The position numbers were made by a program. Positions 9,001 to 15,000 of a stretch of DNA of 64,000 nucleotides are shown one piece after another. Numbering within the stretch: position 1 is the first letter of the stretch; every line of letters starts with the position of its first letter. The stretch is from Escherichia coli (GTDB lineage Bacteria > Pseudomonadota > Gammaproteobacteria > Enterobacterales > Enterobacteriaceae): NCBI RefSeq assembly GCF_002854065.1, contig NZ_CP024147.1. The stretch is one strand, 5' to 3'.

Positions 9001-12000
9001 CAACGATCTCCGTCGGCTATGACAATTTTGATGTCGATGCGCTTACCGCCCGAAAAATTCTGCTGATGCACACGCCAACCGTATTAACAGAAACCGTCGC
9101 CGATACGCTGATGGCGCTGGTGTTGTCTACCGCTCGTCGGGTTGTGGAGGTAGCAGAACGGGTAAAAGCAGGCGAATGGACCGCGAGCATAGGCCCGGAC
9201 TGGTACGGCACTGACGTTCACCATAAAACACTGGGCATTGTCGGGATGGGACGGATCGGCATGGCGCTGGCACAACGTGCGCACTTTGGCTTCAACATGC
9301 CCATCCTCTATAACGCGCGCCGCCACCATAAAGAAGCAGAAGAACGCTTCAACGCCCGCTACTGCGATTTGGATACACTGTTACAAGAGTCAGATTTCGT
9401 TTGCCTGATCCTGCCGTTAACTGATGAGACGTATCATCTATTTGGCGCAGAACAATTCGCCAAAATGAAATCCTCCGCCATATTCATTAATGCCGGACGT
9501 GGCCCGGTGGTTGATGAAAATGCACTGATTGCTGCATTGCAGAAAGGCGAAATTCACGCCGCCGGGCTGGATGTCTTCGAACAAGAGCCACTTTCCGTAG
9601 ATTCGCCGTTGCTCTCAATGGCCAACGTCGTCGCAGTACCGCATATTGGATCTGCCACCCATGAGACGCGTTATGGCATGGCCGCCTGTGCCGTGGATAA
9701 TTTGATTGATGCGTTACAAGGAAAGGTTGAGAAGAACTGTGTGAATCCGCACGTCGCGGACTAAGCCGCGACTGCGTGGAGTAAAGCCCGATAATCGCTC
9801 GGGCTTTTACTCTTTATTGGGTTGCAGTAACTGCTGTAGTCCAGGCCTGATTAAACGCCTGATGTTGTGCCGGTAATGGCGCAATCAGTTTGTTATATTC
9901 ACTTGCCTGCTGTGAAGTCGGGAACTGGATGCCATTTGCTACAAAGCTCACCTGAGTACCTTGTTGGGCAATGTAGTCTCCAACCATCACCAGTTGTTGC
10001 GTGAAAGTTTGTGCCGCCGGAATCAACGGTTGCAATGCATCAGCTGGCGTCGTTACCACTTTGGTGAATGCCTGATCAAAGACCGGTTTCAGGTCATCAC
10101 TCTGTTTTAGCGCAGAGTGCGCAGCATCGGCCTGCAACTTCGCATTTTGCAGTTGTTGCGCCAGCACACCCAGCGAACCATTCATTTCACGCAGCGGACC
10201 GCTTTGCGTAACGTAATCCTGCGGTACGCGAATTGCGTTAACGCTGTCTACAACCGGGCGCAGACCGGAATCCATCGCCTGATTCACCTGCTGAGAATAA
10301 CCATACAGAATCGCGTAATCAGAGACAAAAGGACCAAACTGTTTTTTCTGATCGGCAGTCAGGGTTGGTAGACGTTCACCGCTACGCATCACTGTATTCT
10401 GCAGGAAGTCGATAAACGCTTTACGCTGATCGCCTTCTTTATCAAAACACCCACTCAGGCTAACTACCATTAATAACGCCGCAAGAGGCGCAAACCAGCG
10501 AGAGCAGGACTTTCCTGTCGCCATTTTCTTACTCCTTTCACCCAAAAAAAGCGCACAACGACACACGCGTGTCTGACGTGACAAGGATAGTCCAGGACAG
10601 GCTTGCAGGATACCCTTTCTACGTAATCTTCCTGGTAAAATCATGGAGAAAATGAAACAAGGTTAATTTGTTGTTTCATTGTTAAAAAATGATATTGCCG
10701 TTGCCTTTTTTGTAGCCAGAGATTTACGCCTTCGCAGAAGGTTAGATTTTCGAAATCTTTACAAACCAGGAGTGGTAAGAGATATATCGGCATTTATCAG
10801 ATCGTTAGGTGGCTATAAGTCACGCTAAATGACTGGCTGAATCGAATCATAGCCAGAGCATGCCCTGACTTCACCCCGCTGTGTCTGCTTTTCCCGACTA
10901 TTCTTAATGAGCTTCGATGCAATTCACGATCCCGCAGTGTGATTTGAGGAGTTTTCAATGGAATATAAAGATCCAATGCATGAGCTGTTGAGCAGCCTGG
11001 AACAGATTGTTTTTAAAGATGAAACGCAGAAAATTACCCTGACGCACAGAACAACGTCCTGTACCGAAATTGAGCAGTTACGAAAAGGGACAGGATTAAA
11101 AATCGATGATTTCGCCCGGGTTTTGGGCGTATCAGTCGCCATGGTAAAGGAATGGGAATCCAGACGCGTGAAGCCTTCAAGTGCCGAACTAAAATTGATG
11201 CGTTTGATTCAAGCCAACCCGGCATTAAGTAAGCAGTTGATGGAATAGACTTTTATCCACTTTATTGCTGTTTACGGTCCTGATGACAGGACCGTTTTCC
11301 AACCGATTAATCATAAATATGAAAAATAATTGTTGCATCACCCGCCAATGCGTGGCTTAATGCACATCAACGGTTTGACGTACAGACCATTAAAGCAGTG
11401 TAGTAAGGCAAGTCCCTTCAAGAGTTATCGTTGATACCCCTCGTAGTGCACATTCCTTTAACGCTTCAAAATCTGTAAAGCACGCCATATCGCCGAAAGG
11501 CACACTTAATTATTAAAGGTAATACACTATGTCCGGTAAAATGACTGGTATCGTAAAATGGTTCAACGCTGACAAAGGCTTCGGCTTCATCACTCCTGAC
11601 GATGGCTCTAAAGACGTGTTCGTACACTTCTCTGCTATCCAGAACGATGGTTACAAATCTCTGGACGAAGGTCAGAAAGTGTCCTTCACCATCGAAAGCG
11701 GCGCTAAAGGCCCGGCAGCTGGTAACGTAACCAGCCTGTAATCTCTGCTTAAAAGCACAGAATCTAAGATCCCTGCCATTTGGCGGGGATTTTTTTATTT
11801 GTTTTTCAGGAAATAAATAATCGATCGCGTAATAAAATCTAGTATTATTTTTGTGAAAAATAAATTTGGGTGCAATGAGAATGCGCAACGCCGTAAGAAA
11901 GGCGGGAATAACTTCCCGCCGAAGACTCTTACTCTTTCAAATTGCAGGCTAAAAATGCCGCCAGCTCATAACCCCCCTGTTTAATATGCAATTCACACAG

Positions 12001-15000
12001 TGAATCTCTTATCATCCAGGTGAAAAATAAAAGCGTGAAACAAATGGGTGCAGTACACTTTTTGATTTATAGTCAGGTGGGACTTTTCTCTGTCTGCCTT
12101 TCGGTGAATACCTGAGACAAACAGTCTCAAGCACCCGTGGCTATTCTAGCTTAATAAGTTTGTTTCTTCTCCTTGATATAATCCTAAAAAATCTCATAAA
12201 ATTAATATATGAGATAATCTTTATTCAGCAGAAGATTATTAAAGGTTGCTGTATTATTTAGCGATAAAAAAAGCCTGCCAGATGGCAGGCTTTTTAATAA
12301 CGGCGTTATTACTGCAACAGCGAAATATCCGCAACGCGCAGGAACAGTTCGCGCAGTTTCTCCAGCATGGTCAGACGGTTGATACGCAATTCTTTGTCAT
12401 CAACCATGACCATCACTTTATCGAAGAAGGCATCGACCGGTTCACGCAGCTCTGCCAGTTCGACCAGCGCATCCTGGTAACGACCTTCCGCAAAGTACGG
12501 CTCCAGCTTGTCACGTAGCACCACAACCTGCATCGCCAGTTTAATTTCTTCCGGCTCTTTCAGAGTAGAGGCATTCACGCGATCGCTCAGCACTTCGTCA
12601 GATTTCGCCAGGATGTTAGATACACGTTTGTTCGCCGCCGCCAGTGCTGCAGCTGCTTCCAGGGTACGGAAGTGCGATACCGCTTTCATGCGGGCATCGA
12701 AATCAGCCGGACGAGTCGGACGACGCGCCAGTACCGCCTGGATGGTGTCAACGGTATAACCTTCGTCCTGATACCAGGCGCGGAAGCGACCGAGCATAAA
12801 GTCGATAACATCATCAACTACGTTGGCATTAGTCAGCTTATCGCCATACAGACGCACCGCTTCTTCGGTCAGCGTTTGCAGATCAAGGTTGAGGTTCTTC
12901 TCAACGATAATTCGCAGCACGCCAAGTGCGGCACGACGCAGCGCAAACGGGTCTTTGTCGCCTTTCGGATGCTGACCGATACCGAAGATACCCGCCAGAG
13001 TATCCATCTTATCAGCAATCGCCAGCGCACAAGCTACCGGGTTGGACGGCAGGTCATCACCGGCAAAGCGCGGCTGATACTGCTCATTCAGCGCGACGGC
13101 TACGTCTTCCGCTTCGCCATCGTGACGCGCGTAGTGCATCCCCATAACGCCTTGGGTGTCGGTGAACTCGAAGACCATGTTGGTCATCAGGTCACACTTA
13201 GACAGCAGGCCCGCACGGGTTGCGTGGTTAACGTCAGCGCCAATCTGTTCGGCGATCCAGCCAGCCAGCGCCTGGATGCGGTCAGTTTTGTCACGCAGCG
13301 TACCCAGCTGTTGCTGGAACAGCACGGTTTGCAGACGCGGCAGGTTATCTTCCAGACGTTTTTTACGGTCGGTGTTGAAGAAGAACTCGGCATCAGCCAG
13401 ACGTGGACGAACGACTTTCTCGTTACCAGAGATAATTTGCTGCGGATCTTTCGATTCGATGTTGGCAACGAAGATAAAGTTCGGCAGCAGTTTGCCGTCG
13501 TTCGCATACACCGGGAAGTACTTCTGGTCACCTTTCATGGTGTAAACCAGTGCTTCAGACGGCACCGCGAGGAATTTCTCTTCAAATTTCGCGGTTAGAA
13601 CGACCGGCCACTCCACCAGCGAAGCCACTTCTTCCAGCAGGCTTTCGCTTAAGTCAGCGTTACCGCCAATCTTACGCGCTGCTTCTTCGGCATCGGCTTT
13701 AATCTTCGCCTTACGTTCTTCGTAATCGGCGATGACTTTCCCACGCTCACGCAGAATTTCCGGATACTGATCGGCGTTATCGATGGTGAATTCCGGCTCG
13801 CCCATAAAGCGGTGGCCGCGAATCACGCGATCGGACTGAATGCCCAGAATGGTTGCAGGAATGACTTTGTCGCCCAGCAGCAGGGTCACGGTGTGCACCG
13901 GACGCACGAAGTGCACGTCGCTTGCACCCCAGCGCATCAGTTTCGGAATCGGCAGTTTCGCCAGCGAAGTCGCAACCATATTCGGCAGCAGTGCTTCAGT
14001 GCTTTCGCCCTTCACATGGGCGCGATACAGCAGCCATTCGCCTTTATCGGTAGTCAGACGCTCAGCCTGGTCAACGGTAATACCGCAACCACGCGCCCAA
14101 CCTTCTGCCGCTTTGCTCGGTTTGCCTTCAGCGTCGAACGCCTGGGCAATCGCCGGGCCGCGTTTTTCGATTTCACGATCCGGTTGCGCTTCCGCCAGGT
14201 TAGCTACTTTCAGCGCCAGACGACGCGGAGCAGCAAACCATTGAACGGTGCCGTGTGCGAGGCCAGCGTTATCCAGCTCCGCAGTAAAGTTCGCAGCAAA
14301 GGACTCTGCCAGGCTGCGCAGTGCTTTTGGTGGCAGCTCTTCAGTGCCGATTTCCACCAGAAAAGTTTTCTCAGACATAGCCGCCTCTTACTTATCTTTG
14401 TTGCACATCGGGAAGCCGAGGGCTTCACGGGAAGCGTAATATGCTTCTGCCACTGCTTTGGTCAGGGTGCGAATGCGCAGAATGTAGCGCTGACGCTCGG
14501 TGACGGAGATGGCTTTACGCGCATCCAGCAGGTTGAAGCTGTGGGCGGCTTTCAGAATACGCTCGTAAGCTGGCAGCGGCAGCGGATTTTCCAGCGCCAG
14601 CAGCTGCTGCGCTTCTTTCTCGTACTGCTCAAAGCAGGTGAACAGGAAGTCCACGTCCGCGTATTCGAAGTTGTAAGTGGACTGCTCCACTTCGTTCTGA
14701 TGGAACACGTCGCCGTAGGTGGTTTTACCCAGCGGGCCGTCGCTCCAGACCAGGTCGTAAACGCTGTCTACGCCCTGAATGTACATGGCCAGACGTTCCA
14801 GACCGTAGGTGATCTCGCCGGTAACCGGTTTACACTCCAGACCACCAACCTGCTGGAAGTAAGTGAACTGCGTCACTTCCATGCCGTTTAGCCACACTTC
14901 CCAGCCCAGTCCCCAGGCACCCAGCGTCGGGTTTTCCCAGTTATCTTCCACGAAACGGATATCGTGGATAGTCGGGTCCATGCCCAGCTCTTTCAGAGAA

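What the first reader, a model, noticed from the sequence alone, without database searches (positions are those of the whole stretch)
11929..12300. hok-like toxin locus lacking IS150 and with a degenerate hok N-terminus
K-12 has an IS150 beside hokA (from memory); here cspA and glyS are only about 570 bp apart. The hok-like frame has an intact hydrophobic and C-terminal part but no in-frame start upstream of the transmembrane segment in my reading. That points to a decayed type I toxin locus, unless a non-canonical start or a reading error on my part is involved.
Basis: partly seen in the sequence, partly recalled or inferred. Interest (0 to 1): 0.4.

Follow-up and report, generated by a model that had tools for sequence, protein, structure and literature searches.

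The report
Dead hokA toxin locus, IS150 scar
The cspA–glyS spacer of this E. coli window holds a dead copy of the known hokA/sokA toxin–antitoxin locus. One deletion removed an IS150 insertion, the toxin's start and the antitoxin gene, leaving 12-16 bases of the IS150 end as a scar; it is an ordinary, rare pseudogene allele.

Summary
cspA (11529-11741, +) and glyS (12309-14378, -) are 567 bp apart, with no IS150 element between them. The minus strand carries only codons 13-50 of HokA (12045-11932, stop 11931-11929). An in-frame TAA lies at 12069-12067, and no ATG, GTG or TTG lies between it and the internal Met18.

Alignment with intact alleles shows that 108 native nucleotides are missing. 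They include the mok Shine-Dalgarno and start, the Sok target, the inferred sok promoter and Sok 5' half, the hok SD and hok codons 1-12.

At the junction sits TGTACTGCACCCATTT (12057-12042, minus strand), which equals the first 16 nt of the IS150 left end. Strain CUPS04 has a full IS150 with the same upstream junction. Deleting 1542 bp from it in silico, across a 4-nt ATTT microhomology, reproduces the window junction. So the locus once carried IS150 and lost it together with the toxin start and the antitoxin.

Only 12 of 5426 complete E. coli genomes share this junction. RefSeq annotates a 45-aa "HokA" there, starting at ATC directly after a stop codon, which is almost certainly an artefact.

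This is a known locus and a known kind of decay. Interest is low.

The parts
11929..12045 (-). hokA remnant: codons I13-E50 (12045-11932) plus the TAA stop (11931-11929). Codons 1-12, the SD and the start codon are absent.
   Evidence: Translation; alignments with intact alleles; Pfam HOK_GEF partial match to profile positions 9-42 of 42.
12042..12057 (-). IS150 left-end (IRL) footprint TGTACTGCACCCATTT. Twelve nt (12057-12046) can only come from IS150. The last 4 nt, ATTT (12045-12042), are shared with hokA codon 13 and form the microhomology at the deletion junction.
   Evidence: Identical to the IS150 ends read in K-12, EC22 and CUPS04. It is the only occurrence in the window; 0.03 matches are expected by chance with up to 2 mismatches.
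12058..12136 (-). Retained 5' leader of the hokA mRNA, from the inferred +1 (GGGTGCTTGAG..., tac element 12136-12125) to the former IS150 insertion point (...AAATCAAAAAG).
   Evidence: Matches the 5' part of Rfam RF01794; identical to the leader of intact alleles; predicted to pair with the 3' fbi element.
12058..12093 (+). 3' remnant of the sokA antitoxin RNA gene. It corresponds to the 35-nt sokA pseudogene annotated in K-12 to the right of IS150. Its promoter and 5' target-recognition half are deleted.
   Evidence: K-12 annotation of sokA b4614, mapped through the alignments. The position of the sok promoter in the deleted segment is my inference, by analogy with plasmid R1.
11868..11880 (-). 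fbi (fold-back inhibition) element TCTCATTGCACCC at the 3' end of the hokA transcript.
   Evidence: In the minimum-free-energy fold, nt 1-6 and 8-12 pair with nt 269-264 and 261-257, as in the intact NU14 transcript.
11901..11920 (-). Conserved G+C-rich hairpin just after the hokA stop (GGCGGGAAGTTATTCCCGCC followed by TTTCTT).
   Evidence: Terminator-like site. The same hairpin is the IS2 target in strain THO-010.
11929..12066 (-). The 45-aa ORF that RefSeq/PGAP calls HokA (WP_032213338.1) in genomes identical to the window here. It starts at ATC, directly after the TAA at 12069-12067. I judge it an annotation artefact.
   Evidence: Annotation of NZ_CM128593.1; sequence.
11881..11952 (+). ysaE homologue: a 23-aa small ORF (MRNAVRKAGITSRRRLLLFQIAG), intact, overlapping the 3' end of hokA on the other strand.
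   Evidence: K-12 ysaE b4793. Translations agree at 20 of 23 residues.
12143..12148 (-). Possible -10 hexamer (TAGAAT) of the hokA promoter, 6 nt upstream of the inferred +1. No good -35.
   Evidence: Read from the sequence. Inference only; the promoter scan did not call it.

Best explanation
This is the chromosomal hokA/mokA/sokA type I toxin-antitoxin locus of E. coli in a dead state.

Proposed history (inferred):
- An ancestor carried a 1443-bp IS150 at the AAG just upstream of the mok Shine-Dalgarno, left end first in the hok direction. About a fifth of sequenced E. coli have an IS150 in this arrangement today.
- A single 1542-bp deletion then removed IS150 nt 17-1443, the second copy of the AAG target duplication, and 108 nt of native sequence.
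- The deletion joined the IS150 left end to hokA codon 13 across a 4-nt ATTT microhomology.

The 108 nt lost held the mok SD and start, the Sok target, the hok SD and hok codons 1-12. By analogy with R1, they also held the sok promoter and the Sok 5' half.

What remains:
- the hok promoter region;
- 79 nt of leader, including tac;
- a 12-16 nt IS150 footprint;
- hokA codons 13-50;
- the 3' UTR with fbi.

A roughly 269-nt RNA may still be made and may still fold end to end. Neither toxin nor antitoxin can be produced.

Shown: the missing segment, the IS150 identity of the junction, and the existence of a full IS150 with the same upstream junction. Inferred: the order and number of events, and the lack of expression.
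For: - Gap against intact alleles. Three-way alignment shows a 98-column gap against the O145 allele. Against native alleles (NU14, O104:H4, THO-010), exactly 108 native nt are missing.
- IS150 identity of the junction. The junction reads ...AAATCAAAAAG|TGTACTGCACCCATTT|GTTTCACGC. The middle 16 nt equal the IS150 left end as read in K-12, EC22 and CUPS04.
- Matching precursor. CUPS04 has a complete IS150 with the identical, unusual upstream junction CAAAAAG|TGTACTGCACCC. Removing 1542 bp from it in silico gives the window junction exactly. The only other differences are 10 scattered changes (9 substitutions and a 1-nt indel) across the 567-bp spacer.
- Clean insertion in EC22. EC22 shows IS150 with a 3-bp AAG target duplication at this site.
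- Rfam. RF01794 scores 99.4 bits in O145 and 56.9 bits in the deletion allele, below the gathering score of 59.
- Pfam. HOK_GEF covers only profile positions 9-42 here.
- Not an assembly error. The same junction is in 12 of 5426 complete genomes.
- Literature. K-12 hok loci are already known to be inactivated by IS elements (Pedersen and Gerdes 1999, as cited in PMC7232551 and bioRxiv 10.1101/2025.08.07.668861).
Against: - No genome with the exact precursor haplotype was found. CUPS04 shares the junction but differs at 10 other positions.
- The 12 genomes fall into two haplotypes that differ at 7 of 567 positions. So the event is old, has moved by recombination, or happened twice.
- One step versus two steps cannot be told apart. 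The alternative is an IS150-adjacent deletion followed by loss of the IS.
- Absence of transcription and translation was not measured.
- The sok promoter position is inferred from R1 by memory, not tested here.
Confidence: 0.88

Rival explanations
1. A plain 98-bp deletion within an IS-free allele such as that of O145:H28, followed by a few point changes near the junction. IS150 was never involved in this lineage.
For: The O145 allele already reads AAAGTGTGTACTGCCCC at the site. The alignment can therefore be read as a 98-bp gap plus four nearby substitutions.
Against: - It needs three or four extra changes, including an inserted A, that happen to recreate 12 of 12 nt of the IS150 left end.
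- It also needs to recreate the CAAAAAG junction seen next to a real IS150 in CUPS04.
- The O145 TGTACTG is itself best read as an IS150 footprint. It replaces the conserved mok SD, GAGG, of native alleles. It follows the same AAAGTG junction that flanks a full IS150 in strain 504239.
Confidence: 0.06
2. The locus still encodes a working, shortened Hok of 45 aa that starts at the ATC at 12066, as RefSeq annotates, or one of 28 aa from the ATG at 12015.
For: PGAP annotates a 45-aa 'type I toxin-antitoxin system toxin HokA' without a pseudogene flag in identical genomes. The HOK_GEF score of 71 bits is above the cut-off.
Against: - The ATC is the first codon after an in-frame TAA. No Shine-Dalgarno precedes it or the ATG at 12015.
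- The mok SD and start that drive hok translation by coupling are deleted. Mutations in the mok SD or start alone abolish R1 hok toxicity (PMC9841398).
- Half of the membrane helix is missing.
- No antitoxin gene remains, so an active toxin would be hard to tolerate.
Confidence: 0.03
3. Sequencing or assembly artefact: a collapsed repeat or a mis-join in the window.
For: None specific.
Against: The identical junction is present in 12 independent complete genomes from different hosts and countries. Two of them are 100% identical over the whole 567-bp spacer.
Confidence: 0.01

Closest known systems
hokA/mokA/sokA of E. coli K-12 (b4455, b4647, b4614), disrupted by IS150
   Same: Same chromosomal site between cspA and glyS. 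Same gene: the retained part is identical at 35 of 38 residues. Same leader, 3' UTR and overlapping ysaE. Both are inactivated through IS150 acting on the leader next to the mok SD.
   Different: K-12 keeps the full 1443-bp IS150, in the opposite orientation. It keeps a complete 50-codon hokA with its SD, and lacks about 40 nt of leader. The window has lost the IS except for 12-16 nt, and has lost hokA codons 1-12 and the sok promoter. The K-12 type is in about 1644 of 5426 genomes; the window type is in 12.
hokA alleles with IS150 in the other orientation (EC22, CUPS04, TUM1886, 504239)
   Same: Same insertion point (AAG before TGAGG) and same orientation as the footprint. CUPS04 has the same CAAAAAG|TGTACTGCACCC junction.
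   Different: These alleles retain the whole IS150 and a complete mok/hok/sok core downstream of it. About 1098 genomes have this upstream junction.
hok/sok of plasmid R1, the reference type I toxin-antitoxin and post-segregational killing system
   Same: Family-level architecture: 5' tac and 3' fbi long-range pairing, a hairpin after the stop codon, and Hok/Gef homology (mechanism as summarised in PMC9841398).
   Different: R1 has an intact mok, hok and sok and is functional. Here the central regulatory and coding core is deleted. Even intact chromosomal hokA (E. coli C) did not mediate post-segregational killing, according to Pedersen and Gerdes 1999 as cited in bioRxiv 10.1101/2025.08.07.668861.
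O145:H28-type hokA allele (WP_001135738.1 context)
   Same: Also IS150-free with a terminal IS150 footprint at the same site: AAAGTG|TGTACTG|CCCCTC.
   Different: The footprint is only 7 nt and replaces 3 nt (AGG) of the mok SD. hokA, sok and the rest of the leader are complete. About 100 genomes are at least 99% identical to this version.

Membership tests
Hok/Gef type I toxin (Pfam PF01848) | Sequence match to the HOK_GEF profile | tested here: met
   The 45-aa frame scores 71.3 bits but covers only profile positions 9-42 of 42. The 28-aa ATG ORF scores 46.4 bits and covers 19-42. The full-length O145 protein covers 1-42.
Hok/Gef type I toxin (Pfam PF01848) | Complete ORF of about 50 codons with a start codon, an SD and a whole N-terminal membrane helix | tested here: not met
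   Codons 1-12, the SD and the ATG are absent. TAA lies at 12069-12067, and no ATG, GTG or TTG lies before Met18.
hok/mok/sok locus (type I toxin-antitoxin) | mok reading frame with its SD upstream of hok, giving translational coupling | tested here: not met
   The GAGG and the mok ATG lie inside the 108 nt that are missing.
hok/mok/sok locus (type I toxin-antitoxin) | Antisense Sok RNA gene with its own promoter, opposite the hok leader | tested here: not met
   Only the 3' 36 nt (12058-12093, +) remain, by comparison with the K-12 sokA annotation. RF01794 scores 56.9 bits, below its gathering score of 59. The promoter position is inferred.
hok/mok/sok locus (type I toxin-antitoxin) | tac/fbi pairing between the 5' and 3' ends of the mRNA | tested here: met
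   Predicted in the MFE fold of the 269-nt remnant, with the same pairs as in the 363-nt NU14 transcript. This is in silico only.
hok/mok/sok locus (type I toxin-antitoxin) | Toxicity of the peptide and its neutralisation by Sok | not testable with these tools
   Needs cloning and expression.
IS150 (IS3 family insertion sequence) | Both terminal inverted repeats, the orfA/orfB transposase, a length of 1443 bp and a 3-bp target duplication | tested here: not met
   Only the first 16 nt of the left end are present. No transposase ORF lies in the spacer. This is a footprint, not an element.

The most novel reading that the evidence does not exclude
The mok Shine-Dalgarno region of hokA may be a recurrent IS150 target where the element is both gained and lost. 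If so, IS150 loss by short-homology deletion is a general route by which E. coli disposes of a chromosomal hok/sok locus in one safe step, taking the toxin start and the antitoxin together.

The window allele (12-16 nt footprint, 108 nt lost) and the O145 allele (7 nt footprint, mok SD lost) would then be two natural IS150 excision footprints. Such footprints are seldom documented for copy-out/paste-in IS3-family elements.
Probability: 0.45. Interest if true: 0.3.

Novelty: already known. Interest (0 to 1): 0.15.

Why it matters
It matters little beyond bookkeeping, for three reasons.

- Decay of chromosomal hok loci through IS elements has been known since 1999. This allele adds a rare variant, found in 12 of 5426 genomes, in which the IS has since been deleted.
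- RefSeq proteins such as WP_032213338.1 (45 aa, ATC start) are probably pseudogene fragments annotated as intact toxins. They can inflate counts of Hok diversity.
- The locus gives a clean natural example of an IS150 footprint. It shows that absence of an IS does not mean the ancestral state. That is relevant when hok loci are scored as intact because no IS is found.

Tried and rejected
- I looked for an intermediate with IS150 abutting hokA codon 13 directly, using a synthetic junction query. The tool joins the two halves across the native 111 nt, so ordinary IS150-bearing alleles score 100%. The result is uninformative.
- I tried to place the window among the 12 deletion genomes with a 22-kb query. 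The ranking was dominated by coverage differences from other IS elements. The best hit, THO-010, turned out to have a native hokA 5' part with an IS2 in the 3' UTR. No phylogenetic conclusion was possible.
- I compared the 1.5-kb flanks of the two deletion haplotypes. They are too conserved to decide between single and multiple origin.
- The promoter scan did not call a hok promoter.
- Pedersen and Gerdes 1999 (PubMed 10361310) is not in the library. Searches for hokA with IS150, and for YsaE, found nothing directly relevant.
- The allele counts add up to roughly 130-230 more than 5426. The categories are therefore not fully exclusive, and the numbers are approximate.
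Full report
**What is there.** The window is E. coli. The 567-bp spacer is 100% identical to two complete E. coli genomes and matches 5425 of 5426. cspA is at 11529-11741 (+) and glyS at 12309-14378 (-).

On the minus strand the frame ending at 11929 reads ...T*L*IKKCTAPICFTLLFFTWMIRDSLCELHIKQGGYELAAFLACNLKE*. The last 38 residues are HokA residues 13-50. Upstream there is a TAA at 12069-12067. No ATG, GTG or TTG follows it until the ATG at 12015, which is the internal Met18. Pfam HOK_GEF matches only profile positions 9-42 of 42, while a full-length allele matches 1-42. K-12 does have IS150 here, 32 nt upstream of the hokA ATG.

**What is missing.** Alignment with the full-length O145 allele shows a 98-column gap. 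Comparison with native alleles (NU14, O104:H4, 1162T7, THO-010) shows the true native sequence at the site: AAATCAAAG TGAGGCCCCTCTATGC.... Exactly 108 native nt are absent from the window. They run from the mok SD (GAGG) through the mok ATG, the Sok target region, the hok SD and ATG, to hok codon 12.

By analogy with R1 (my recollection of its sequence; inference), the sok promoter is TTGATT-N17-TAACCT on the opposite strand, and it lies inside this segment too. Only the 3' 36 nt of sokA remain (12058-12093, +), judged against the K-12 sokA annotation.

Rfam RF01794 is named sok but is modelled on the hok-leader strand. It scores 99.4 bits in O145 and 56.9 bits in the deletion allele, below its gathering score of 59. 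The outer parts of the transcript survive. In MFE folds the 5' tac (12136-12125) pairs with the 3' fbi (11880-11868). This holds both in the 269-nt remnant and in the 363-nt NU14 transcript.

**The junction is an IS150 scar.** In the hok direction the window reads ...CTATAAATCAAAAAG|TGTACTGCACCCATTT|GTTTCACGC.... The middle 16 nt equal the left end of IS150 (TGTACTGCACCCATTTTGTTGGACG), as read in K-12, EC22, CUPS04, TUM1886 and 504239. They occur once in the window, where 0.03 matches are expected even with two mismatches.

- EC22 carries a clean 1443-bp IS150 at this site with a 3-bp AAG duplication.
- CUPS04 carries one with the same unusual upstream junction, CAAAAAG|TGTACTGCACCC, as the window.
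- Deleting 1542 bp from CUPS04 in silico reproduces the window junction exactly. The deleted stretch is IS150 nt 17-1443, the AAG copy and 108 native nt, joined at a shared ATTT.
- The only remaining differences are 10 scattered changes (9 substitutions and a 1-nt indel).

The simplest history is an IS150 insertion next to the mok SD, followed by one microhomology deletion. That deletion removed the IS, the toxin start and the antitoxin together. A two-step route cannot be excluded, and my test for it was uninformative.

**How common.** The counts below come from junction queries against 5426 complete E. coli genomes.

| Allele at the hokA leader | Genomes |
|---|---|
| Window junction (IS150 scar plus deletion) | 12 |
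| Uninterrupted native leader across the IS150 target | about 2800 |
| IS150, left end first | about 1098 |
| IS150, K-12 type (opposite orientation, about 40 nt of leader missing) | about 1644 |
| At least 99% identical to the O145 version (7-nt footprint) | about 100 |

These counts overshoot the total by a few percent and are approximate. The 12 window-type genomes fall into two haplotypes that differ at 7 of 567 positions. Whether that reflects age, recombination or recurrence is open. In the O145 version a 7-nt footprint (TGTACTG) replaces AGG of the mok SD.

**Function.** I conclude that neither Hok nor Sok can be made. In R1, single substitutions in the mok SD or start already abolish toxicity (PMC9841398). 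Here those elements, the hok SD, the start codon and half of the membrane helix are all gone. This rests on sequence. Expression was not measured.

RefSeq nevertheless annotates a 45-aa HokA (11929-12066, ATC start directly after TAA) in identical genomes, without a pseudogene flag. I regard that as an artefact of homology-guided gene calling.

**Comparison and novelty.** Chromosomal hok loci of K-12 are known to be inactivated by IS elements, point mutations or rearrangement. The source is Pedersen and Gerdes 1999, cited in PMC7232551 and in bioRxiv 10.1101/2025.08.07.668861. The latter adds that even the IS-free hokA of E. coli C gave no post-segregational killing.

The window shows a further, rare stage of the same decay, so it is a known locus and a known kind of event. 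The modest new point is the IS150 footprint. It shows that an IS-free hokA spacer need not be ancestral, and that IS150 copies can be lost leaving 7-16 nt of one end.

**Verdict.** Interest is low.

Noticed in passing
window 11881-11952 (+): An intact 23-aa ORF homologous to K-12 ysaE (b4793), identical at 20 of 23 residues. It overlaps the hokA 3' end on the opposite strand. RefSeq calls it 'hypothetical protein' in most strains and YsaE only where it is identical to K-12.
   Followed up: partly
L003 (O145:H28 RM9872) about 1905-1911; also THO-010, CUPS04 and other hokA alleles: The 'intact' O145-type hokA allele carries a 7-nt IS150 end (TGTACTG) in place of AGG of the mok Shine-Dalgarno (GAGG). 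This 50-aa hokA is probably untranslatable although it is annotated as intact. About 100 genomes share this version.
   Followed up: partly
hokA leader in L011, L012, L013, L014 (EC22, CUPS04, TUM1886, 504239): The sequence just outside the IS150 left end varies between strains (CAAAG, CAAAAG, CAAAAAG, CAAAGTG). The junction at the right end is constant (ACA|AAGTGAGG). This suggests either several insertions or instability next to the left end. Unexplained.
   Followed up: no
L004 (K-12) 734-2176 and flanks: K-12-type IS150 has no target duplication at hokA (flanks ...AAAGTT and TACTCG...). About 40 nt of native leader, including the mok SD and start, are missing beside it. The K-12 allele is therefore an insertion plus an adjacent deletion, not a simple insertion.
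   Followed up: partly
L016 (THO-010) about 1230-2600; L010 (20AR0300) 903-1743: Other IS elements also sit in this locus. THO-010 has an IS2 in the hairpin just after the hokA stop. 20AR0300 has an IS1A plus an IS3-family fragment upstream of hokA. The cspA-glyS spacer collects insertion sequences.
   Followed up: partly
window 11369-11796 (+), mapped from L001/L003 1128-1555: The cspA mRNA thermoregulator (Rfam RF01766) matches at full length, 501 bits. RefSeq labels this cspA gene 'cspE' in most of the genomes inspected.
   Followed up: no
window 2000-2290: The best 22-kb matches in other genomes start only at query position 287-292, so the first 290 nt or so of that stretch differ from the closest relatives. 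Not examined.
   Followed up: no
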